The notes under the pieces were generated by a model that worked only from the letters and a program-made list of their open reading frames with translations, searched no databases and was not told where the DNA came from. A stretch of DNA of 64,000 bases from Candidatus Latescibacterota bacterium (GTDB lineage Bacteria > Latescibacterota > UBA2968 > UBA8231): the NCBI GenBank assembly GCA_965219385.1, contig CBDCNM010000002.1:96639-160638 (forward strand), in the 5' to 3' direction. Of the stretch, positions 44,937-54,600 are shown piece after piece. Each line of letters opens with the position of its first letter. Position 1 is the stretch's first letter. The position numbers and the translations under genes were made by a program.

Positions 44937-44996
44937 AAGGAGTTGACAAGCCAGGTCTGGTTGGATGACTTGGGCGGATTTTTTATCCTTGAATAC

Positions 44997-47744
44997 ATGA
45001 AATACTACTGCAAATGGTCGCTGGTGGTCGGATTGCTGCTGAGTGGGGTGCAGGATGGATGGGGACTGATCTGTGCCACCGGGCCCGCTGCCGGGCGAGT
45101 GCAGCAAGATGGGGCCCGGCAGGGCCAGGTACAGGCTCTGGTGATCTATGCCCGCTTTCGCAACGAGGGTGACGGACGGAGTGAAGCACTGGCGTTTACT
45201 CGCCGTTTCTTCGATCCCGAAGAGCCCGGCAGCCTCACCCATTTCTACCAGGAGATGTCCCGCGGCCAATTCAGCCTGACGGGCACGGTCCTGCCCCGCT
45301 GGTACACCTCGGATCAGCCGGCCTCGGCCTATGTCGCCACCGAAAGGGGAGAGGGGGGCAGATTCGGCACCTTTTCCAGAGAAATACTGCAAGCCGTCGA
45401 CGCCGAGGTAGATCTGGGTTTGTACGACAACGATGGTCCCGACGGCGCGCCCAATTCCGGGGATGACGATGGGGAGGTGGATTTCATCTTCCTCAATACC
45501 CTGACGGCTCCCGAAGGGTTTATCATCGGCAAGGCCACCGGCGTTGCGCGCCTGGGATTGGACCTGGCCTACACCTCGAATGACAGGGCGATCAACGGGG
45601 GGGTTATCCAGGTCCGTTCAGACGATGATTCAGGTGGGACCGGGGGGGTCCTGCAACGGGGTCATACCTTTGAGCTGGCCGTGGGCCACATGGCGCACGA
45701 GTACGGGCATGTGCTGGGGCTGCCCGATTTGTTCGATGCGTCATTCGCCCAATCCCACTACGGCGAATTGGAACCTGCGGAGGATTCTGCCGGAATCGGC
45801 TACTGGGGGCTGATGGGATGGGGGACCCTGGGCTGGAACGAGGTGGATGGTCCCAATCCCTTTTGCTCCTGGAGCCTGGAGCAACTGGGCTGGATCGGGG
45901 TTGAAAACGATCTGCTGGTCGTGGTCGAAGAAAACCTCGAGGACGTGGTTTTCGAGGACGTGAATGCCGGGGGCAAGGTCTACAAGCTGCCGGTCCAGGG
46001 CCAGAACAGGTACTTCCTGGTGGAACACCGCCGCTCCGGCACCAGCTACTACGAGCGCAACCTGCCGGCCTCGGGGCTGCTGATCTGGCAGATCGATAAA
46101 ACACCGGGAGCCTTTAACAGTTCCGAAACCAGGAAATTGGTGGATCTGGTATGCGCGGATGGTTTGTTCAGGGATGCGGGGTACCCAGAGGGCCGGGTGG
46201 CCGATCCAGACTTTGGCCGGGACAATCTGGACTTTTGGGCCCACGACGAAAACTACCGCACGACCCACAGCGGCAATCAGGGCGATGCCACGGACGTATT
46301 CGACGGGGTGGTCGCGACCGATTTTTGGGCGGCCTCCAATCCCGCGGCGCCGTCGGGGATCCGGGTCGGCGATATCCGCCGTCGGGGAGACGACATGGTG
46401 GCGGACCTGTACCTGGAGGATCTCCACCGAGCGGGCCTCATCCAACCGGACGAGGTCTGGGAAGATAGCATCTGGATCGTGGGCGATGTGGTGGTGCGGG
46501 CCGATACCCGACTCATCATCAAGCCCGGCACCCGGGTGATGGTGGGGGAAGATCTCCGCCGCCTCGGCCGCGATCCAGAGCGCTGCGAAGTGGTGATCCA
46601 GGGCGATCTCATCACCGCGTCTTCCGGCCGGGACTCGGTGCTTTTTACCTCCGCGGCCGCGGAGCCCCGGCCGGGCGCCTGGTACGGGATCGTGGCGGGC
46701 GCCACTGGCCGCCTAACCATCCGCAACACCATCGTAGAGTATGCCCGCAACGGTCTGTCGGGAAGCAATATGCTGAATCCCCAGATACTGAACGGGGTGA
46801 CGATCCGCCAGGCCAGTCGCCACGGGATCCACTTTGACAGGCTCCAGGGTCAAGTCACCTTGACGCGCCTGGAGGCGAGCGCCGCTGGTTCGACCGGAGT
46901 GAAGGTGATTGGCCAAGGCACCCTCGAGGTCCAGGAGGGGCGTTTTGCCGGCAATGGTCACAGCGGTCTGGAGCGGGTCGGGGGCCGGTTGGAGTGTGCC
47001 CTGAGCGAATTTGTCGACAATGGACTCGAGCAGGACGAGGGAGCCAATTTAAAACTGGGCGTCGGGGTGTCGGGCAGGGTGTCTCAGAACCGCTTCGAGG
47101 GGGGCGTGGGCATCCGCTGCAGGGACAGCAGAGACGTGCTCATCGAGGAAAACCGCCTGGTTGATCACCGCATCGGCCTGATTTCGGCGTCCTCGCGCCC
47201 CTGGATCCAGGGCAATGAATTTATCGGCAACGAACTGGCATTGCAGATCTCCGGCTTCGTGGTGCCGACTTTTCTGGCCCTGAACATCATTGAAGGCACC
47301 GATCGGCTGCTGGACAACCAGGCGTCGATCGAGGTGGTGGCGCGCAACAACTGGTGGGGACAGGTCGACGAGAACTGGATCGAAGAGCGCATAAGCGGAG
47401 AGGTGATCTGGCGGCCCTTCCTCAATTTCGATCCGCGCGTGCCCGTGGGGTTTACCTTGAGCCAGAATTTTCCCAATCCCTTCAACGGCACTACCGTGAT
47501 CGACTACACCGTGGGCATTGAAGTGCCTATAGTCGCCGGTGAAGTCGATATGGTACTGGAGGTGCGCAGCATCATCGGAGGATTGGTGCGGCGTCTGGTG
47601 CGACAACCAGCCGCTCCGGGTTTCTACTCCGTGGTCTGGGATGGCCGCAACGACGCGGGCGAGCCGGTGGCCAGCGGGGTGTATTACTACCAGCTCAAGG
47701 TGGGGCCGATTACACTTTACAAACGGCTGCTCTTGCTCAAATAG
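44997..47744 (+). CDS. Secreted M6-family (immune inhibitor A-like) metalloprotease with beta-helix and FlgD-Ig/T9SS-type C-terminus
   Basis: HEYGHVLGLPDLFD zinc motif, YDNDGPDG...DDDGEVD, SQNFPNPFN...WDGRNDAGEPVASGVYYY. Confidence 0.9.
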   Translation: MKYYCKWSLVVGLLLSGVQDGWGLICATGPAAGRVQQDGARQGQVQALVIYARFRNEGDGRSEALAFTRRFFDPEEPGSLTHFYQEMSRGQFSLTGTVLPRWYTSDQPASAYVATERGEGGRFGTFSREILQAVDAEVDLGLYDNDGPDGAPNSGDDDGEVDFIFLNTLTAPEGFIIGKATGVARLGLDLAYTSNDRAINGGVIQVRSDDDSGGTGGVLQRGHTFELAVGHMAHEYGHVLGLPDLFDASFAQSHYGELEPAEDSAGIGYWGLMGWGTLGWNEVDGPNPFCSWSLEQLGWIGVENDLLVVVEENLEDVVFEDVNAGGKVYKLPVQGQNRYFLVEHRRSGTSYYERNLPASGLLIWQIDKTPGAFNSSETRKLVDLVCADGLFRDAGYPEGRVADPDFGRDNLDFWAHDENYRTTHSGNQGDATDVFDGVVATDFWAASNPAAPSGIRVGDIRRRGDDMVADLYLEDLHRAGLIQPDEVWEDSIWIVGDVVVRADTRLIIKPGTRVMVGEDLRRLGRDPERCEVVIQGDLITASSGRDSVLFTSAAAEPRPGAWYGIVAGATGRLTIRNTIVEYARNGLSGSNMLNPQILNGVTIRQASRHGIHFDRLQGQVTLTRLEASAAGSTGVKVIGQGTLEVQEGRFAGNGHSGLERVGGRLECALSEFVDNGLEQDEGANLKLGVGVSGRVSQNRFEGGVGIRCRDSRDVLIEENRLVDHRIGLISASSRPWIQGNEFIGNELALQISGFVVPTFLALNIIEGTDRLLDNQASIEVVARNNWWGQVDENWIEERISGEVIWRPFLNFDPRVPVGFTLSQNFPNPFNGTTVIDYTVGIEVPIVAGEVDMVLEVRSIIGGLVRRLVRQPAAPGFYSVVWDGRNDAGEPVASGVYYYQLKVGPITLYKRLLLLK

Positions 47745-47843
47745 GCCAGGGTAGCGGCGAACCTGCCTTGTTTGCGCCGGCGGGTTCTTTATATTTCCTT
47801 CTTTAATACTCTTTACTTCCCCTTGCTACAAAAGGCATACTCC

Positions 47844-49643
47844 TTGACCAGGGGCATTGTCGTTCTGGATTTTGGTGGGCAGTACGCCCATCTGATTGCC
47901 AACCGCATCCGCCGTCTGCAGGTTTACGCCGAGACTCGTTCGCCCGAGGTCGCCCCCGAGGAAATCGAAGGGGCCGACGGCCTCATCCTGTCGGGGGGGC
48001 CCGCGAGCGTGTACGCGGCTGATCAACCCTCCTACAACCCCCGGCTTTTTCACCTGGGCCTGCCCATGCTCGGGCTGTGTTACGGGCACCAGTTGCTCTG
48101 CCAGCAATTCAGCGGCGAGGTGGCGCCGGGGGACACCATGGAATACGGGGCCGCGCGGCTAAGGGTCAAAAACCCCCGGGGGGTTCTGGCCGGCCTGGCG
48201 GAGAGCGAATCCATCTGGATGAGTCACAAAGACAGCGTGGTGGCCCTGCCCGAAGGCTTCGAGATCCTGGGTGAGACCGAGGATTGTCCGGTAGCGGCCA
48301 TGGGCAACGAAGAGGCCAGGATCTACGGTTTGCAGTTTCACCCCGAAGTCACCCACACGGCTTCGGGCATGAAGGTGCTCGAAAACTTCGTCGATATCTG
48401 CGGCTGCGCCCGGGACTGGACCATGGAGCACTTCATCGACCAGTCCCGGGCGCAGATAGAGGCGCAAACGGCCGGGCGCAAGGTCTTCCTCCTGGTCAGC
48501 GGTGGAGTGGATTCCACGGTTTCATTCCTGCTGCTGAACCGGGCGCTGAGCGAAGAGCGGGTGCTGGGCCTGCACATCGACAACGGGCTCATGCGCCAGA
48601 ACGAAACCGCTCTGGTCGGCCGGTTGATGCAGGAGTCTGGTTTCGCCAACCTGGAAGTGGTGGATGGCGGCGCGGATTTTCTCCGGATCCTGGAGGGGGT
48701 GGCCGACCCCGAGGAAAAGCGGCGGCGCATCGGCGAGGAGTTCCTGCGGGTGCGGGATCGCGCCCTCGAAGCCCTGCAACTCGATCCGGAGGAGTGGCTG
48801 CTGGGGCAGGGTACCCTCTACACCGACACCATCGAATCGGGAGGGACCCACAACGCCGAGGTGATCAAGACCCACCACAACCGCGTGGGCATGATCGAGA
48901 GGTTGCTGACCGCAGGCAAGCTCATCGAGCCCCTGGCGCAGCTCTACAAGGACGAGGTGCGCGAACTGGGCGAAAAGCTGGGGCTGCCGCATCACCTGGT
49001 GTGGCGCCACCCTTTCCCCGGACCGGGATTGGGGGTGCGGGTGCTGTGCTCCGATGGCAAAGAGGACCTGGGAGAGGACGGGCCGGCGGTCTCTGCCGTG
49101 GCCAGGATAGGGCGCAAGTTCGGTCTCCAGGCCCAGATCCTGCCCCTGCGCAGCGTGGGGGTGCAGGGCGATGGGCGGACCTACGCCCATCCGGTTGCGG
49201 TGGCGGGAGAGGCCGATTGGACCACCCTCGAAGCGTTGTCTACCGAATTGACCAATACCCTATCCCAGATCAACCGGGTGGTCTACCTGCTGGGCCCCGA
49301 GGAGCGGCTCCGGCAATCCTTGAAAGAGGGGTATCTGACCCGGGATCGCCTGGACTTGCTGCGCCGGGCCGATGCCCTGGTCATGGAGGCCCTGGAGCGG
49401 CACGACCTGATGCAGGAGGTCACGCAGATGCCCACCGTGCTGGTGCCGCTCTCCTCGGACGGACTCCAGGAGAGTATCGTGTTGCGTCCGATTTCCACGG
49501 ACGACTTCATGACCGCCCGCTTCAGCCTGTTGCCCCGGGGCTTTGTGGACGAGGTCGCAGCCGGCTTGCTGGCGCTGGAGGGGATCGAGGCGGTGTTTTA
49601 CGACATTACCCACAAGCCGCCGGGCACGGTGGAGTGGGAGTGA
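47844..49643 (+). CDS. guaA: GMP synthase (glutamine-hydrolysing)
   Basis: LDFGGQY, GLCYGHQ, QFHPEV, SGGVDS, IKTHHN, RHPFPGPGL, KPPGTVEWE. TTG start assumed. Confidence 0.95.
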   Translation: MTRGIVVLDFGGQYAHLIANRIRRLQVYAETRSPEVAPEEIEGADGLILSGGPASVYAADQPSYNPRLFHLGLPMLGLCYGHQLLCQQFSGEVAPGDTMEYGAARLRVKNPRGVLAGLAESESIWMSHKDSVVALPEGFEILGETEDCPVAAMGNEEARIYGLQFHPEVTHTASGMKVLENFVDICGCARDWTMEHFIDQSRAQIEAQTAGRKVFLLVSGGVDSTVSFLLLNRALSEERVLGLHIDNGLMRQNETALVGRLMQESGFANLEVVDGGADFLRILEGVADPEEKRRRIGEEFLRVRDRALEALQLDPEEWLLGQGTLYTDTIESGGTHNAEVIKTHHNRVGMIERLLTAGKLIEPLAQLYKDEVRELGEKLGLPHHLVWRHPFPGPGLGVRVLCSDGKEDLGEDGPAVSAVARIGRKFGLQAQILPLRSVGVQGDGRTYAHPVAVAGEADWTTLEALSTELTNTLSQINRVVYLLGPEERLRQSLKEGYLTRDRLDLLRRADALVMEALERHDLMQEVTQMPTVLVPLSSDGLQESIVLRPISTDDFMTARFSLLPRGFVDEVAAGLLALEGIEAVFYDITHKPPGTVEWE

Positions 49644-49683: not shown

Positions 49684-50934
49684 CTACTTGACCAGAAAGT
49701 ACTTGTTCTTGCCGCGGCGGACCACGATGTACTTGCGGTGCAGGCCATCCTCCTTGCGCATGAGCCGGCCCATTTCGGTGCAGCGCTCGCCGTTTATGTA
49801 GATGGCCCCGGTCTTGATATCCTCCCGGGCCTGGCGCTTGGAAGAGGAGATGCGGGCCTGGGCCAGCAGGTCGACCAATCCCAGTTCCGGCTCCTCCATG
49901 GTGTGGGACGGCACGTCGTTGAACCCCTGCTTTATTTCGTCTTCCTCCAGATCCTCGAGCTCTCCGTAAAACAGCGCACGCGATATTTTCTCTGCCTTGC
50001 GCGTGGCTTCGGAGCCGTGGACCAGGGTGGTTAATTCCCGGGCCAGCCGGGTTTGCGCCTGCCGCTTTTCCGGGTGCTGCCGGGTTTCCTCCTCGAAGGC
50101 GTTGATTGCGTCCCTGGTCAGGAAGGTAAAATACTTCAAGTAAGAAATGACGCTCTGGTCGTCGGCGTTGATCCAGAACTGGTAGAACTGGTAGGGCGTG
50201 GTCCGTTGCGGATCGAGCCACACGGTCCCGGATTCGGTCTTGCCGAACTTGGTGCCGTCCGCCTGGGTGACCAGAGGACAGGTCAACCCGTAGACCTTAT
50301 GGGCCAGGATGCGCCGGATCAAATCGGAACCGGCGGTGATATTGCCCCATTGATCGCTGCCGCCGGTCTGCAACTCGCAGTCGTGGGTCTGGTGCAGTTT
50401 CAGGAAATCGTAGGCCTGCAGGACCATGTAGCTGAACTCGGTGTAGGAGATGCCGGTGTCGAGACGAGAGGCCACCGAGTCCTTGGCCAGCATATAGGGG
50501 ACGGGAAAATGCTTGCCGATATCGCGCAGTAGATCGATGGCCTTGATAGCTCCGAGCCAGTCGTAATTGTTGACGATTTGCGCCGGGTTGCCCGCTGCGC
50601 TGAAGTCGAGAAAGGGTTCCAGCTGCAGCTTGATCTTCGCGCTCCACTCCTCCACGGTCTCTCTGGCATTCAGGGCGCGTTCCTCGGCCTTGCCACCCGG
50701 ATCGCCGATCAACCCGGTGCCGCCGCCCACCAGGGCAATGGGGTGGTGGCCGGCCAGCTGAAAGCGCCGCAGCAACAAGACCGGCAAAAGGCTGCCCACG
50801 TGCAGGCTGTCGGCGGTCGGGTCAAAGCCGTTGTAGAGTGCGATGGGGCCGCTCTGCAGCCGTTGCGCCAATCCGTCCTGGTCGGTGATTTGATAGATCA
50901 GACCTCTGAATTTCAGATCTTCGAGCAGGTTCAT
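49684..50934 (-). CDS. tyrS: Tyrosyl-tRNA synthetase
   Basis: GFDPTADSLHVGS, GGSDQWGNI, KFGKT, C-terminal S4 domain. Confidence 0.97.
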   Translation of the reverse strand: MNLLEDLKFRGLIYQITDQDGLAQRLQSGPIALYNGFDPTADSLHVGSLLPVLLLRRFQLAGHHPIALVGGGTGLIGDPGGKAEERALNARETVEEWSAKIKLQLEPFLDFSAAGNPAQIVNNYDWLGAIKAIDLLRDIGKHFPVPYMLAKDSVASRLDTGISYTEFSYMVLQAYDFLKLHQTHDCELQTGGSDQWGNITAGSDLIRRILAHKVYGLTCPLVTQADGTKFGKTESGTVWLDPQRTTPYQFYQFWINADDQSVISYLKYFTFLTRDAINAFEEETRQHPEKRQAQTRLARELTTLVHGSEATRKAEKISRALFYGELEDLEEDEIKQGFNDVPSHTMEEPELGLVDLLAQARISSSKRQAREDIKTGAIYINGERCTEMGRLMRKEDGLHRKYIVVRRGKNKYFLVK

Positions 50935-50953
50935 AGGTCATCTCCTCGATGGC

Positions 50954-50984
50954 AAAAAAAAGCCCCTGATAAAAAATCAGGGGC
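50954..50984 (-). terminator. Intrinsic terminator (attenuator) in the tyrS leader
   Basis: GCCCCUGAU-U5-AUCAGGGGC 9-bp stem followed by U8, just upstream of the tyrS RBS GAGGAGA. Confidence 0.88.
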
Positions 50985-51015
50985 CGGATGCACGTACTGG
51001 TAGAATGATGGCGTC

Positions 51016-51066
51016 CTAACCCCCTGAGGCATAATAGTAGTATCGATATGCAATGGTACGAGTCAT
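51016..51066 (-). CDS. Tyr-rich leader peptide of tyrS (MTRTIAYRYYYYASGG)
   Basis: 16 codons with 5 Tyr, 4 of them consecutive. RBS AAAGGA. Lies between the promoter and the terminator. Confidence 0.85.
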   Translation of the reverse strand: MTRTIAYRYYYYASGG

Positions 51067-51100
51067 CTTATTTTTATCCTTTAAGTCGAACAGTGAAGTG

Positions 51101-51129
51101 AATATAATGCCGGGTATTGGACCTGTCAA
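51101..51129 (-). promoter_or_regulatory. Sigma70 promoter of the tyrS leader
   Basis: TTGACA-N17-TATATT on the minus strand. Confidence 0.8.
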
Positions 51130-51168
51130 ACAAGGGCCCGGGCGCCGCTCAGGTTTGTACGCACCGGT

Positions 51169-51302
51169 TCACCAGCTCCTTGATCTCGCCACGATGGGCT
51201 CGTTGATCATGCGGGTGATTCGCCGCACGACTGCGGGCAGGGTGGGGCGGCGTTCCATCCGTTTTTGCAGTTCTTCGCAGGGGCTATTTTCGGTGTCGAC
51301 AT
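51169..51302 (-). pseudogene. Possible HDOD-domain gene stub
   Basis: EELQKRMERRPTLPAVVRRITRMINEP resembles the HDOD N-terminal LPTLP motif and is followed out of frame by EIKELV. Confidence 0.45.
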
Positions 51303-51366
51303 GGATCTTGCAAATACAAGGTCTTCCGTCAGGGGAAAGCCGAACGCGGGGTTCGAGGCGAGTATT

Positions 51367-51395
51367 TTGCGCTGTCGGGGATTATTGCCTATTAT
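51367..51395 (+). promoter_or_regulatory. Putative sigma70 promoter of tRNA-Val
   Basis: TTGCGC-N17-TATTAT about 40 nt upstream of the tRNA. Confidence 0.55.
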
Positions 51396-51433
51396 TTTTT
51401 ACCTGCCGGATGGTTCAAGGCGTTTTCGCTTTG

Positions 51434-51510
51434 GGGCGATTAGCTCAGTTGGTCAGAGCACCTGCCTTACAAGCAGGGGGTCGCTGGTTCGAGCCCGGCA
51501 TCGCCCACCA
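51434..51510 (+). tRNA. tRNA-Val (anticodon TAC)
   Basis: Acceptor stem GGGCGAT/ATCGCCC, anticodon arm CCTGC-CTTACAA-GCAGG, GTTCGA T-loop, encoded CCA. Confidence 0.97.
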
Positions 51511-51607
51511 AATTTTCAGCCGCTGACTCTGGCGGTTTGCAAGTTAGCGCGAGCCTCCGGGGATGGCCCTCTCGGGGGCTTAAAGAAGGGCTGAGAACAG
51601 GGAATAC

Positions 51608-54600
51608 TTGATGGGGACTGAAACCACCATCCGGGAAGGACAGGTCCTCACCGGCCCGCTGTTCAGCGAGCCGATGCTGGTGGAGACCGTCCGTTCAAAC
51701 GGGACCGACATCTGGGTCGCGGGCCTCGTCGGCCAGAAGTCTGAGCGGTTCCACCGGGTCACGCTCACCTCCGACGACATCTCGAACCTGGCCATCGCCG
51801 ACTCCGCTCTGTCCTACGACGGCGACGGGCGGCTTCTGCGCCTCGGCCTCCAGGCCTATTCACTGGGCATCGCCTACGAATTCGACCCCTATTTCGGGCT
51901 TTCCATCTCGCGCGTGGACCCGTTGCCGCACCAACTCGAAGCGGTCTACGATCATCTACTCAAGCTGCCCAGCGTGCGCTTCCTGCTCGCCGACGATGCG
52001 GGTGCGGGCAAGACCATCATGGCCGGCCTCCTGGTCCGCGAGCTCAAGCTTCGGGGCCTCGTCGAACGGGTTCTCGTCGTCTGTCCCGCCAACCTGACCT
52101 TCCAGTGGCAGCGCGAACTCAAGGAAAAGTTCGACGAGAAATTCCTCATTCTTAAGGGCGGCGACATCCGCGATCAATTCGGCGTCAACCAGTGGCTGGA
52201 GCAAAAGCAGATCATCACCTCGCTCGACCTGGCCAAGCGCACCGACATCCTGCCCGGACTGCGGCAGGTGCACTGGGATCTGGTGATCGTCGACGAGGCG
52301 CATCGCATGTCGGCCCGCGATGAGACCCATAAGAGCCAGCGCTACCGGCTGGGGGAGTTGCTGCGCGACAGCGCCGATCACGTACTTTTGTTGACTGCCA
52401 CGCCCCACAAGGGCGATCCGCAGAACTTCACCCTGTTCCTGCAGCTTCTCGACCGGGACGCCTACGCCGACGTGAGTTCGATCCGCGAGGCCATGGAGCG
52501 GAGGCGAGCGCCCTTCTACCTGCGGCGCACCAAGGAGGCGATGGTCTACTTCCCGGAGCGTCAGACGGACGGGACGTGGACCGCGAAGCCGGTTTTCACG
52601 AAACGTATCCCGCGCACCGCCGCCTTCGCCATTGAAGGCGCTGAATTCGAGCTCTATCAGAAGATCACCCGGTTCGTGAAACGGCAGAGCGCTCGCGCCG
52701 CGGCGCAGGGGGACGACCCGCAGGCTCGGGCGGTCGGCTTCCTGATGTCGTTGTACCAGCGGCGCCTCGCCTCCAGCACGCACGCTATGCGGCGATCGCT
52801 CGAGAACCGAACAAGGCGTCTGGAGGATGGTCTCAAGCGCGCCCAAGAACTGGTGCGGATGGCGCCGCCGGATCTTCCCGACTTAGAAGAGCTGGAGGAG
52901 TTCGAGGACGCCGAGCGCGAGCGCCTGGAGAGGATGCTGGAGGCGATCACGCTGGCCGGCAACGCCGAGCAGATACGTGAAGAGATCGCCGAACTCCTCG
53001 AGCTGGCCGAAGAGGCCAAGGCCGTCGAAGGCTCGGGCAACGAGGCCAAATTCGGACATCTTCGGGGGATCATGCAGGAGGAAGGGTTCTTCGACCGTCC
53101 CGACCAGCGACTGCTGCTCTTCACCGAGTTCAAGGACACCCTCGACTATCTGATGGAACAACTGAAAGCCTGGGGCTTCAGCGTCGGCTGCATCCACGGA
53201 GGCATGAAGTCCGGCTCGCGCGACGAACCGGGAAGCCGGCTCTACACCGAGCAGCAGTTCCGCGAAGGCGCCATCCAGATCCTGGTGGCCACCGAGGCGG
53301 CCGGCGAAGGCATCAACCTTCAGTGCTGCCACATCCTCTTCAACTACGACATCCCCTGGAATCCGAACCGGCTCGAACAGCGCATGGGCCGCATCCACCG
53401 CTACGGCCAGCGGCACGATTGCCTGATCTTCAACTTCGTGGCGACCAACACCATCGAGGGGCGGGTGCTCCAGCGCCTCTTGGACAAGCTCCAGGAGATC
53501 CGCGACGCCCTCGACGACGACGCGGTGTTCAACGTGGTGGGCGAGGTCTTGCCGTCCGCCCACGTGGAGCGCGTACTCCGAGACTACTACGCGGGGAAAT
53601 TGGGTGACTCTGATCTTGAAGAGCGGCTTTTGCAGGACGTGGATGAGGGGCACTTCCGGGCGATCTGCCAGACGGCGCTGGAAGGGTTGGCCGCCAAGAG
53701 GCTCAACCTCGACATGCTCATCGAGCGCCGGGCGAGGGCCCAGGAGCGGCGCGTCGTGCCCGAGACCATCGCGCGGTTCATCAAAGAGTGCGCCCAGGAT
53801 GCGGCCCTGGCCCTGAGGCCGGTGGGCCACTTGGCGCATACCTTCGAGCCGGGGCGGACTCCGTCCGGTTTGAAGAAGTACGAGCACAATCCAGACTGGA
53901 AACTCCCGGAGCTAGCGATTCGCTATCCGCGCCTGTCGATGGACCGCGACACGGCCGAGGAACACAACCTCGAATGGGTGACCCCCGGACATCCCCTGTT
54001 CGAGGCCCTGCGCCGTCATAGTCTAAATCTCGGCCAGGATGCCTTTGCCAAGGGGGCCTGTTTCCATTCACTGGCACACGCAGCACCGGCGCGCCTCGAC
54101 TTCTACCGGGCGCGGGTCGTGGATGGCCTCGGACAGGTCATCCACGAACGGCTGTTCACCGTGGAGCTCGCGAATGACGGCTCTCCCTGCCTCCGCGAAC
54201 CGGATGTCCTCGGCGATCTAAGCCCGGCCCACGCTTTGGGGGGTCTACCGCCCGTAGCCGCTCTCCCGGAGGCGACCGCCTGGCTCAACGAGCACGCGCT
54301 AATCCCGTTCAGCGACGAGGTCCGCACGGAGCGTCTGGCCGAGGTCGAGCGCATTGCCAGGCACGTCGAGCTGTCCTTGACCGAGGTTCTCCAGCGGATC
54401 GATGACGAGATCGGCCGTGCCGACGAAGAGGTGGATAACGACGTGACCGGCGCCGAAGGCCGCCTAGCGCAGGCCGAAACCCGTCATGCCGAGGTGCTGG
54501 CGCGGCGCAAGCGGCGGCATGAAGAGTTCGAGCGGCAGCGGGCGGTGACCCTGCAGGGAGTCGAGCGGCTCGCCAGCGTCCTGATCCTGCCCCATCCCGA

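What the first reader, a model, noticed from the sequence alone, without database searches (positions are those of the whole stretch)
50935..51129. Tyrosine leader-peptide attenuator controlling tyrS
Seen on the minus strand, in order: a TTGACA-N17-TATATT promoter; an RBS; a 16-codon ORF MTRTIAYRYYYYASGG (51066-51016; Tyr at codons 7 and 9-12); a 9-bp terminator with U8 (50984-50954); then tyrS. UCAGGGG in the Ser-Gly codons (51027-51021) is complementary to the terminator 5' arm CCCCUGA (50983-50977), extended by GGACGC/GCAUCC, so it forms a mutually exclusive antiterminator. Known: this is the architecture of the trpL, hisL and pheM-pheST attenuators, whereas Firmicutes regulate tyrS by T-box. 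Inference: ribosome stalling on Tyr codons when Tyr-tRNA is scarce frees the antiterminator and induces TyrRS. I do not know of a described Tyr-codon attenuator for tyrS, but I could not search the literature.
Basis: partly seen in the sequence, partly recalled or inferred. Interest (0 to 1): 0.92.

Follow-up and report, generated by a model that had tools for sequence, protein, structure and literature searches.

The report
Tyrosine-codon leader attenuator before tyrS
A tiny tyrosine-rich mini-gene followed by a stop-transcription hairpin sits in front of the tyrosyl-tRNA synthetase gene of this uncultured Latescibacterota bacterium and many of its relatives, and most likely works like the classic trp and pheST attenuators, a familiar kind of switch on a gene for which I found none published.

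Summary
These are the promoter, the AGGA ribosome site, the 16-codon ORF MTRTIAYRYYYYASGG, the terminator with U8, and UCAGGGG complementary to the terminator's 5' arm.

Conservation, not chance statistics, makes the case. I found 47 non-identical versions upstream of tyrS, all in one family of Candidatus Latescibacterota. Each has a short ORF with 1-6 Tyr codons, a G-run next to its stop, and a CCCC(U/C)G terminator 19-50 nt before tyrS (152-155 in two).

A sister element in relatives precedes a DAHP synthase gene. Its leader is rich in Phe, Tyr and Trp, so codon content follows gene function. The nearest TyrRS outside the phylum (Paenibacillus) carries a T-box instead.

The best reading is ribosome-mediated transcription attenuation that senses Tyr-tRNA charging (confidence 0.8).

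Weak points:
- No expression data cover the leader.
- Covariation of the antiterminator is not significant.
- The window's copy lacks an anti-antiterminator.

I found no published tyrS leader peptide. One relevant 2010 survey could not be read. Earlier notes of this scan report similar tyrS leaders in gut Clostridia. Verdict: a new member of a known kind, of moderate interest.

The parts
51124..51129 (-). -35 hexamer TTGACA
   Evidence: 11 of 12 with the -10. A TTGAC-type -35 at 17-18 nt spacing is seen in 38 of 42 related leaders.
51101..51106 (-). -10 hexamer TATATT
   Evidence: TATATT is nearly fixed among the relatives.
51077..51080 (-). Shine-Dalgarno-like AGGA of the leader ORF
   Evidence: An SD-like 4-mer lies 4-11 nt before the start in 24 of 42 relatives.
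51016..51066 (-). Leader ORF, 16 codons plus TAG: MTRTIAYRYYYYASGG
   Evidence: Conserved as an ORF in relatives.
51031..51048 (-). Regulatory codons TAT CGA TAC TAC TAT TAT (Tyr7, Arg8 as the rare codon CGA, Tyr9-12)
   Evidence: One search gives the codon list. In the genome's long ORFs CGA is 7.8% of Arg codons and TAT is 29% of Tyr codons.
51029..51051 (-). Local hairpin GCAUA/UAUGC holding the Tyr codons in its loop; a possible pause hairpin (inferred)
   Evidence: Minimum-free-energy folds.
51011..51027 (-). Antiterminator 5' strand: UCAGGGG (51027-51021) plus GGACGC (51016-51011). It spans the last codons and the stop.
   Evidence: It pairs with the terminator's 5' arm when the 3' arm is withheld.
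50976..50991 (-). Shared strand: terminator 5' arm GGCCCCUGAU (50985-50976) plus GCAUCC (50991-50986). It pairs either with the antiterminator strand or with the 3' arm.
50954..50970 (-). Terminator 3' arm AUCAGGGGCU (50970-50961) and U8 tract (50961-50954)
   Evidence: The hairpin is -17.8 kcal/mol. The helix is 98.3% paired across 30 relatives, with 2 pairs changed on both sides.
50942..50947 (-). Shine-Dalgarno GAGGAG of tyrS, downstream of the terminator
49684..50934 (-). tyrS, tyrosyl-tRNA synthetase, 416 aa; the only copy in the genome

Best explanation
This is a ribosome-mediated (leader-peptide) transcription attenuator of tyrS.

Transcription starts at the conserved TTGACA/TATATT promoter. 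A ribosome translates the 16-codon leader while RNA polymerase moves on.

When Tyr-tRNA(Tyr) is plentiful, the ribosome runs to the UAG. There it covers UCAGGGGG, which lies 1-9 nt before the stop. CCCCUGA is then free to pair with the 3' arm, the terminator forms, and transcription ends at the U8 tract 20 nt before tyrS.

When charged tRNA(Tyr) is scarce, the ribosome stalls at the early Tyr codons (7, 9, 10). UCAGGGG stays exposed and pairs with CCCCUGA before the 3' arm is made. Polymerase reads through and more TyrRS is made.

Shown here: the parts, their mutual exclusivity, and their conservation and placement in relatives. Inferred: translation of the ORF, stalling, the kinetic choice between structures, and the response to tyrosine.
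For: 1. Anatomy. All parts lie in the right order between a promoter and tyrS, and no other gene could use this terminator.

2. Conservation with the gene.
- 17 of the 24 other sampled genomes of family f1 have a clear leader, 3 are partial or uncertain, and 4 have none.
- There are 42 distinct leaders and 5 more.
- A covariance model built from 30 of them gives full-length hits at E <= 1e-5 in 35 of 64 f1 genomes and in 0 of 87 genomes of other families of the phylum.
- For the 13 such hits whose tyrS coordinates I hold, all lie directly upstream of tyrS.
- In the own genome the model finds only this site.

3. Coding signature.
- Tyr is 131 of 827 leader codons (15.8%), against 2.8% genome-wide.
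- Close relatives differ by TAT/TAC changes while keeping Tyr.
- A start codon and the reading frame are kept.
- The promoter keeps a fixed distance to the start codon.

4. Geometry.
- The distance from the stop to the terminator's 5' arm is 22-41 nt in 41 of 42 leaders. The one exception is L059 at 77 nt, where my script mis-picked the hairpin.
- In the 11 lineages where the truncated fold forms the antiterminator, its 5' strand ends from 18 nt before the stop to 9 nt after it. In 8 of the 11 it ends within 3 nt before to 1 nt after the stop.

5. Alternative pairing.
- The ORF 3' segment pairs with the 5' arm better than 95% of shuffles in 25 of 42 leaders.
- Own pairs beat swapped pairs: -15.4 against -14.07 +/- 0.53, with 152 of 20000 permutations as good.
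- With the 3' arm withheld, the antiterminator forms in the window's leader and in 11 of 19 lineage representatives.
- In genus g13 the G-run can instead pair with ACCCC just after the Tyr codons, the classical 1:2 helix.

6. Codon content tracks the gene. The sister element before a DAHP synthase gene (Pfam PF00793, 284.6 bits) encodes leaders such as MKTSAAYRYFYFYFYYAFAERGER.

7. No T-box or other Rfam family is present here. Paenibacillus tyrS orthologues do have T-boxes.
Against: - There is no experimental or transcript evidence.
- In a fixed-column alignment the antiterminator is 73.3% paired, no better than shuffles (72.8%; 139 of 500 reach it). Its G4/C4 core is invariant, so support rests on conservation and only modest covariation.
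- Equilibrium folds keep the terminator at every ribosome position tried. The switch must therefore be kinetic, which I cannot compute.
- The truncated-transcript fold did not give the antiterminator in 8 of 19 lineages.
- The window's copy has no upstream partner for the G-run. An untranslated leader would therefore default to read-through, unlike trp.
- With a footprint reaching 12 nt past the A-site's first base (general knowledge, not tested), stalls at Tyr11 or Tyr12 would hide UCAGGGG.
- Some lineages keep only one Tyr codon (RRYRR in L021, L063, L070; L020). That is thin for a codon sensor. The flanking CGCCGAUACCG is conserved at the nucleotide level and remains unexplained.
Confidence: 0.8

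Rival explanations
1. The terminator/antiterminator switch is real but is set by something other than a translating ribosome. Candidates are TyrRS binding its own leader (as E. coli ThrRS binds its operator) or tRNA(Tyr) binding directly. On this view the ORF is incidental or secondary.
For: - The nucleotide string around the first Tyr codon (CGAUAC, often CGCCGAUACCG) is conserved even in lineages with a single Tyr codon.
- In several folds the Tyr codons sit in a hairpin loop.
- Antiterminator covariation is weak.
Against: - No T-box or other known leader family matches, even at E <= 10.
- The roughly 110-nt leader is far shorter than a T-box.
- Start codon, frame, stop position and TAT/TAC synonymous changes are all kept.
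- The sister DAHP synthase leader changes its codon content to Phe/Tyr/Trp. A codon reader explains that; a TyrRS or tRNA(Tyr) binding site does not.
Confidence: 0.08
2. The promoter, short ORF and terminator form an independent small gene (a small RNA or a 16-residue peptide) that merely lies next to tyrS. tyrS would be expressed from another start or by unregulated read-through.
For: The unit has its own promoter and a strong terminator. The nearest Rfam resemblances are small RNAs, but only through the terminator hairpin (MicL, 26.5 bits against a cutoff of 56).
Against: - The unit is always directly upstream of tyrS, on the same strand, 19-50 nt from its start in most lineages.
- No second promoter-like site lies between the terminator and tyrS.
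- The peptide sequence is poorly conserved apart from the Tyr run and the terminal G-rich codons. That fits a codon sensor rather than a functional peptide.
Confidence: 0.05
3. The upstream ORF acts on translation rather than transcription, for example by delivering ribosomes to tyrS through reinitiation. The hairpin would serve only as an RNA-stability element.
For: Leader genes have been proposed to raise translation by reinitiation (PMC4833913; abstract and passages seen). The gap from the terminator to the tyrS start is short.
Against: - The hairpin is followed by 5-8 U in all 42 leaders, the mark of an intrinsic terminator.
- The leader stop lies about 82 nt before the tyrS start, with a stable hairpin between.
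- In two lineages the gap from the terminator to tyrS is 152-155 nt.
- The G-run/C-run competition would have no role.
Confidence: 0.04

Closest known systems
pheM leader of the E. coli pheST operon (leader-peptide attenuation of an aminoacyl-tRNA synthetase). Cited as Springer 1985 in review PMC11802643 (passage seen) and in PMC1262725 (passage seen).
   Same: A synthetase gene is preceded by a short ORF rich in codons for its own amino acid and by an intrinsic terminator with a competing upstream pairing. The signal is the charging level of the cognate tRNA.
   Different: Tyr instead of Phe. A different phylum (Latescibacterota). No sequence relation tested or expected. The window's copy has three interacting segments and no anti-antiterminator. 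Some relatives appear leaderless.
Classical attenuators predicted upstream of trpS and leuS in Streptomyces (PMC1262725; passages seen).
   Same: Comparative-genomic prediction of leader-peptide attenuation of synthetase genes outside the Proteobacteria.
   Different: Other amino acids and another phylum. That paper lists tyrosine genes as regulated 'by T-boxes' in other species and reports no tyrS leader peptide.
T-box leader of tyrS in Firmicutes (Rfam RF00230). Found here upstream of the Paenibacillus orthologues L051 (94.2 bits) and L061 (120.1 bits).
   Same: Same gene (TyrRS 57-62% identical), same physiological signal (tRNA(Tyr) charging), and same output (terminator versus antiterminator).
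   Different: The sensor is direct tRNA binding to a structured RNA of about 220 nt. Here it is a ribosome reading Tyr codons in a roughly 110-nt leader. RF00230 does not match the window even at E <= 10.
aroR leader peptide (Phe-Tyr-Phe) upstream of aroF (DAHP synthase) in Corynebacterium glutamicum. Neshat 2014, as summarised in review PMC11802643 (passage seen).
   Same: It resembles the sister element found here in relatives: an aromatic-codon leader before a DAHP synthase gene.
   Different: It concerns the sister element, not the window's tyrS leader. According to the review, transcription in C. glutamicum responded to Phe but not to Tyr availability.
trpL attenuator of the E. coli trp operon (textbook; details recalled, cited in PMC11802643).
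   Same: Coupled transcription and translation. The stop codon is placed so that a terminating ribosome masks the antiterminator strand. The terminator is more stable than the antiterminator. The g13 relatives have a 1:2 / 2:3 / 3:4 layout.
   Different: It controls a biosynthetic operon, not a synthetase. The window's copy lacks the 1:2 helix.

Membership tests
Leader-peptide (ribosome-mediated) transcription attenuators (trpL, hisL, pheL, pheM type) | A short ORF with a start signal lies in the 5' leader, between the promoter and the regulated gene | tested here: met
   A promoter-like site scoring >= 9 of 12 is seen in 38 of 42 relatives and an SD-like site in 24 of 42. In 6 lineages the -10 ends 7 nt before the start codon.
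Leader-peptide (ribosome-mediated) transcription attenuators (trpL, hisL, pheL, pheM type) | The ORF is enriched in codons for the amino acid tied to the regulated gene | tested here: met
   5 of 16 codons are Tyr in the window. Across 42 leaders Tyr is 15.8% of codons, against 2.8% in the genome. Four lineages keep only 1 Tyr codon.
Leader-peptide (ribosome-mediated) transcription attenuators (trpL, hisL, pheL, pheM type) | An intrinsic terminator lies between the ORF and the gene | tested here: met
   10 pairs plus U8. The hairpin is -17.8 kcal/mol. It is 98.3% paired across 30 sequences.
Leader-peptide (ribosome-mediated) transcription attenuators (trpL, hisL, pheL, pheM type) | An antiterminator that is mutually exclusive with the terminator | tested here: inconclusive
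   It is present and exclusive in the window and forms in 11 of 19 truncated folds. Own pairs beat swapped pairs in 19848 of 20000 permutations. Fixed-column covariation is not above shuffles.
Leader-peptide (ribosome-mediated) transcription attenuators (trpL, hisL, pheL, pheM type) | The stop codon is placed so that a terminating ribosome masks the antiterminator strand | tested here: met
   In the window UCAGGGG ends 3 nt before UAG. In the 11 lineages whose truncated fold gives the antiterminator, its 5' strand ends from 18 nt before the stop to 9 nt after it. Footprint size is taken from general knowledge.
Leader-peptide (ribosome-mediated) transcription attenuators (trpL, hisL, pheL, pheM type) | An anti-antiterminator (1:2) helix that includes or adjoins the regulatory codons | tested here: not met
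   The window's leader has no C-rich partner upstream of the G-run. Genus g13 relatives do have ACCCC/GGGGU. That helix is 75.3% paired against 62.5% in shuffles, but a slide of +1 scores almost as well. This feature is common in the family but is not needed for the basic mechanism.
Leader-peptide (ribosome-mediated) transcription attenuators (trpL, hisL, pheL, pheM type) | Read-through rises when the cognate charged tRNA is scarce and depends on translation of the leader | not testable with these tools
   RNA contigs of two metatranscriptome runs from one study match tyrS coding DNA only. None covers the leader.
T-box leaders (Rfam RF00230) | A match to the T-box covariance model (Stem I specifier loop, T-box sequence, antiterminator bulge) | tested here: not met
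   No RF00230 match in window 50700-51700 at E <= 10, and none at the gathering cutoff in the 10 Latescibacterota-labelled loci scanned. The Paenibacillus loci L051 and L061 do match.
Curated Rfam amino-acid leader families (His, Trp, Thr, Leu and Phe leaders) | A match to any of those covariance models | tested here: not met
   None appears among the 12 matches at E <= 10. Family names are recalled; the scan covered all 4227 Rfam 15 models.

The most novel reading that the evidence does not exclude
One attenuator module has been copied and re-coded within a single Latescibacterota family. The same backbone is used before two genes: an Arg-Tyr entry into the codon run, a G-run at the stop, and a GCCCCUGA terminator. 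Before tyrS it carries Tyr-only codons. Before DAHP synthase it carries mixed Phe/Tyr/Trp codons. This would be a natural example of a leader peptide re-tuned to a new signal by codon substitution. Some descendants have become leaderless and keep a single Tyr codon next to the rare Arg codon CGA. That would mean one hungry codon in a slowly decoded context is enough to set the switch.
Probability: 0.4. Interest if true: 0.65.

Novelty: new member of a known kind. Interest (0 to 1): 0.47.

Why it matters
- It adds tyrosine and tyrS to the short list of synthetase genes thought to be controlled by leader-peptide attenuation (pheST; predicted trpS and leuS).
- It places this mechanism in a candidate phylum with no cultured members.
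- It gives a clean case of the same gene sensing the same signal in two ways: a T-box in Firmicutes and a ribosome-read leader here.
- The 47 natural variants differ in Tyr count (1 to 6), in having or lacking a 1:2 helix, and in having an SD or being leaderless. With the Phe/Tyr/Trp sister element they form a ready-made series for testing how many regulatory codons and which helices an attenuator needs.
- For annotation, the element marks the tyrS transcription unit and could be added to RNA family libraries.

Tried and rejected
- Rfam at E <= 10: only terminator look-alikes and the tRNA.
- Whole-leader fold stability against shuffles was not significant.
- Expression. One look-up found 3 RNA runs. 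Exact-match contigs of two runs from one study lie on tyrS coding DNA (50451-50674, 50703-50871, 50614-50845). None lies on 50935-51129. Coverage is too thin to say anything about transcript ends or read-through.
- Equilibrium folding with ribosome masks never removed the terminator, so that test cannot discriminate.
- MAFFT alignment of all 42 leaders (A1) misaligned the divergent lineages. I used a 30-sequence subset (A2) and dropped L007, L018-L022, L039, L042, L055, L059, L063 and L070.
- One search listed 53 rows. I dropped 11 (Paenibacillus and other Firmicutes) as chance ORFs in front of T-box-type terminators.
- Other leaders in the own genome.
  - A strict scan (447 terminator-like sites, 73 candidate ORFs) left only the tyrS leader as convincing.
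  - One apparent Ile/Thr candidate is the C-terminus of a ClpP-like gene, judged by eye.
  - A relaxed scan (6665 sites, 111 candidates) also found nothing else. Two five-Trp ORFs lie in coding DNA.
  - One search's output was cut.
- The own DAHP synthase homologue has no leader.
- Weak model hits outside family f1 are plain terminators or tRNA plus terminator. The hits matching model positions 48-133 in g13 are also tRNA plus terminator.
- The nearest non-Latescibacterota TyrRS loci (Dethiobacter, Syntrophomonadaceae, CPR) show no Tyr leader.
- Literature. Six searches found no tyrS leader peptide. The 2010 survey by Lopatovskaya et al. (Mol Biol 44:128) is not held and may bear on priority.

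Full report
**Observation.**
- TTGACA (51129-51124), a 17-nt spacer and TATATT (51106-51101) form the best promoter-like site in the 3.5 kb scanned, matching 11 of 12 positions.
- AGGA (51080-51077) lies 10 nt before ATG 51066.
- The ORF ATG ACT CGT ACC ATT GCA TAT CGA TAC TAC TAT TAT GCC TCA GGG GGT TAG gives MTRTIAYRYYYYASGG.
- The hairpin GGCCCCUGAU-UUUUU-AUCAGGGGCU (50985-50961) is followed by U8 (to 50954).
- GAGGAG follows, then the tyrS ATG at 50934.
- tyrS encodes a 416-aa class I Tyr/Trp-type synthetase with the TyrRS C-terminal domain. It is the only copy in the 5.8-Mb genome.
- UCAGGGG (51027-51021) is the exact complement of CCCCUGA (50983-50977).
- The proposed extension GGACGC/GCAUCC pairs at 5 of 6 positions.

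Upstream lie only a divergent tRNA-Val (51434-51510, + strand) and a + strand helicase-like ORF. The hairpin therefore serves no other gene.

Window-only statistics are weak. One search finds 2 promoter-like sites against 0.8 +/- 1.0 in shuffles and 5 terminator-like sites against 3.3 +/- 2.0. The whole-leader fold has z = -1.62.

**Relatives.** The genome belongs to Candidatus Latescibacterota. The nearest TyrRS genes in named public contigs are MAGs with that label, a few labelled Gemmatimonadetes.

I examined the 24 other genomes of the same family (f1) sampled.
- 17 have a clear version of the element directly upstream of tyrS: a short ORF with Tyr codons, a G-run next to its stop, and a terminator with a U-run.
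- 3 are partial or uncertain: a contig end, no canonical start codon, and a weak U-run.
- 4 have none.
- The 5 loci I examined from other families of the class have none. There tyrS follows a trpF-like gene.

Adding the named contigs gives 42 non-identical leaders. Five more came from the model search.

Examples:
- MTFATTYRYYYSTSGG
- MKNCYRYYHLEISGG
- MALKSYYYRLEKQYGG
- MHTLHVYRYYYYTLSTRGV
- MQTLRADRHYYYTPLHRQG (a large genus)
- MQTLRADRYYYYYYTSRPKGG
- one-Tyr forms such as ...DRRYRR...GGTER

A covariance model was built from 30 leaders, with only the terminator pairs specified.
- In the own genome it finds only this site at 75.2 bits. The next hit scores 16.8 bits at E about 1.
- In a sample of 151 genomes of the phylum, full-length hits at E <= 1e-5 occur in 35 of 64 f1 genomes and in 0 of 87 genomes of other families.
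- The model misses the divergent lineages (for example genus g18), so 35 is a lower bound.
- For the 13 such genomes whose tyrS position I know, the hit abuts tyrS in all 13.
- Weak hits outside f1 are plain terminators or a tRNA followed by a terminator.

**Signs that the ORF is read as codons.**
- Tyr makes up 131 of 827 leader codons (15.8%), against 2.8% in the genome's long ORFs.
- Within the large genus the run reads TAT TAT TAT, TAT TAC TAT or TAC TAT TAT. Tyr is kept while the third base drifts.
- TAT, the minor Tyr codon genome-wide (29% of Tyr codons), accounts for 86 of 131 leader Tyr codons.
- An Arg codon sits immediately 5' of a Tyr codon in 24 of 42 leaders. In 16 cases it is CGA, which is 7.8% of Arg codons genome-wide.
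- A promoter-like site scoring >= 9 of 12 precedes 38 of 42 leaders, with TATATT almost fixed.
- An SD-like 4-mer precedes 24 of 42.
- In 6 lineages the -10 ends exactly 7 nt before the start codon, which suggests leaderless translation.

**A sister element.** Secondary hits of the model in f1 genomes led to a second leader of the same build. Of the 16 regions fetched, 8 were this element, 5 were further tyrS leaders, and 3 were a tRNA plus terminator.

Its peptides are rich in Phe, Tyr and sometimes Trp:
- MNPSTAPRYFYFFYFYAFDKGGER
- MKTSAAYRYFYFYFYYAFAERGER
- MTCRTARYFSFYFFTWKFSGG
- MTTSTRYFYYYWFYASGQGG

In 5 of the 8, an ORF that starts 16-27 nt downstream begins like the L112 protein, which Pfam assigns to DAHP_synth_1 (284.6 bits). 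My ORF picker did not resolve the other three.

Alignment with the window's leader shows the shared ends...GCCTC(A/T)GG..GGGGGTTAG and GCCCCTGA...TCAGGGGC.

So the codon content changes with the function of the gene behind it. This is the strongest single argument for a codon-reading sensor. The own genome's one DAHP synthase homologue (52.5% identity) has no such leader.

**Structure.**
- The terminator helix is 98.3% paired over 30 sequences, with two pairs changed on both sides. No shuffle of 500 reached its covariation score.
- The antiterminator is harder to prove because its G4/C4 core never varies.
  - In fixed columns it is 73.3% paired, which is not above shuffles (139 of 500 reach it).
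  - Sequence by sequence, the ORF 3' segment pairs with the 5' arm better than 95% of its own shuffles in 25 of 42 leaders.
  - For 17 lineage representatives, own pairs are stronger than swapped pairs: -15.4 against -14.07 +/- 0.53 kcal/mol, with 152 of 20000 permutations as good.
  - Lineage-specific arms are matched by lineage-specific ORF segments. Examples are CACCGGGGG/CCCCCGGUG in L021 and CGUCCUCG/CGAGGACG in L059.
- When the transcript is folded only up to the terminator loop, the 5' arm pairs back to the G-run in 11 of 19 representatives, including the window.
- In the large genus and in L050 the G-run prefers ACCCC or ACCUC right after the Tyr codons. This is a classical anti-antiterminator (1:2) helix. 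It is 75.3% paired against 62.5% in shuffles, but a one-column slide scores almost as well.
- The window's copy has no such partner.
- Full-length equilibrium folds keep the terminator (-17.8 kcal/mol) whatever part a ribosome masks. The antiterminator appears only when the 3' arm is withheld. The choice must therefore be kinetic, as in known attenuators (recalled).

**Mechanism.** I assumed a footprint from 15 nt before to 12 nt after the first base of the A-site codon.
- A ribosome waiting at Tyr7, Tyr9 or Tyr10 leaves UCAGGGG free.
- One at Tyr11 or Tyr12, or at the stop, covers it.

Plentiful Tyr-tRNA thus sends the ribosome to the stop, where it hides the G-run and lets the terminator form. 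Scarcity holds the ribosome at the early Tyr codons, the antiterminator forms first, and tyrS is transcribed. The parts and their competition are shown. Translation, stalling and the response are inferred.

**What is known.** Leader-peptide attenuation of synthetase genes is established for E. coli pheST and predicted for trpS and leuS in Streptomyces (PMC1262725, passages; PMC11802643, passage). The first of these papers lists tyrosine genes as T-box regulated.
- Paenibacillus orthologues of this TyrRS (57-62% identical) carry T-boxes at 94.2 and 120.1 bits. None of the 10 Latescibacterota-labelled loci scanned does.
- The C. glutamicum aroR leader (Phe-Tyr-Phe) before aroF is a precedent for the sister element (PMC11802643, passage).
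- PMC2659441 (Table 3, passage) lists E. coli aroF as having an 'attenuator sensing tyr-tRNA', citing work from 1980.
- Six full-text searches found no tyrS leader peptide and nothing on attenuators in Latescibacteria.
- Naville and Gautheret 2010 (PMC2965389, passages) does not mention one.
- The 2010 survey by Lopatovskaya et al. is not held, so priority cannot be excluded.
- Earlier notes of this scan (e1-4674096 and e1-4943028, not checked here) describe Tyr-codon leaders before tyrS in uncultured gut Clostridia. The scan has therefore seen this kind of element before, on other DNA.

**Verdict.** This is a new member of a known kind: a classical attenuator on a new gene and amino acid, in a candidate phylum, with a re-coded sister element and leaderless and one-codon variants worth testing. 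Confidence in the mechanism is 0.8. Interest is moderate.

Noticed in passing
L111:1505-1659(-), L112, L113, L117, L119, L124:143-284(+), L125, L126 (relatives; not in the window): A sister leader-peptide attenuator with Phe/Tyr/Trp-rich leaders (e.g. MKTSAAYRYFYFYFYYAFAERGER, MTTSTRYFYYYWFYASGQGG) lies upstream of a DAHP synthase gene (Pfam PF00793) in at least 8 family genomes. It has the same terminator and G-run design as the tyrS leader. The own genome's DAHP synthase homologue (G000 C2:1738728-1739729) lacks it.
   Followed up: partly
L007, L021, L055, L059, L063, L070 (tyrS leaders of relatives): The -10 hexamer ends exactly 7 nt before the leader's start codon, so these leader ORFs are probably translated from leaderless transcripts. 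The window's copy has a spacing of 34 nt from the -10 to the ATG, and an AGGA.
   Followed up: partly
window 51043-51045 and the same position in relatives: The rare Arg codon CGA (7.8% of Arg codons in long ORFs) sits immediately 5' of a Tyr codon in 16 leaders. The string CGCCGAUACCG is conserved even where only one Tyr codon remains (RRYRR forms). Whether this is a slow-decoding context or an RNA motif is unexplained.
   Followed up: partly
L037-L048, L093 (genus g13 leaders): Two linked variants recur: Thr-Pro (ACC CCG) with Gln-Gly (CAG GGG), and Thr-Ser (ACC UCG) with Glu-Gly (GAG GGG). The second weakens the 1:2 and the 2:3 helices together, as if the two competing helices were kept in balance. 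L056 is an exception.
   Followed up: no
L024, L027-L030, L087, L094: In other families of the class, tyrS directly follows a gene whose end reads like phosphoribosylanthranilate isomerase (trpF), judged by eye. There is no leader or terminator between them.
   Followed up: no
window 51434-51510 (+); L077:301-374: A tRNA-Val(TAC) gene is divergent from the tyrS leader promoter. A tRNA gene in the same divergent position is also seen in relative L077.
   Followed up: no
window 44943-47744 (+): A 933-aa ORF with an HEYGH zinc-protease-like motif and a long repeat-rich C-terminal part lies upstream of guaA (47772-49643). Seen only in the ORF list.
   Followed up: no
table: Outside Latescibacterota, the closest TyrRS relatives are Firmicutes (Paenibacillus, Dethiobacter, Syntrophomonadaceae; 57-65% identity), some Chloroflexota and CPR MAGs. 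This hints at past transfer of this tyrS type between phyla, with a change of regulatory leader.
   Followed up: no
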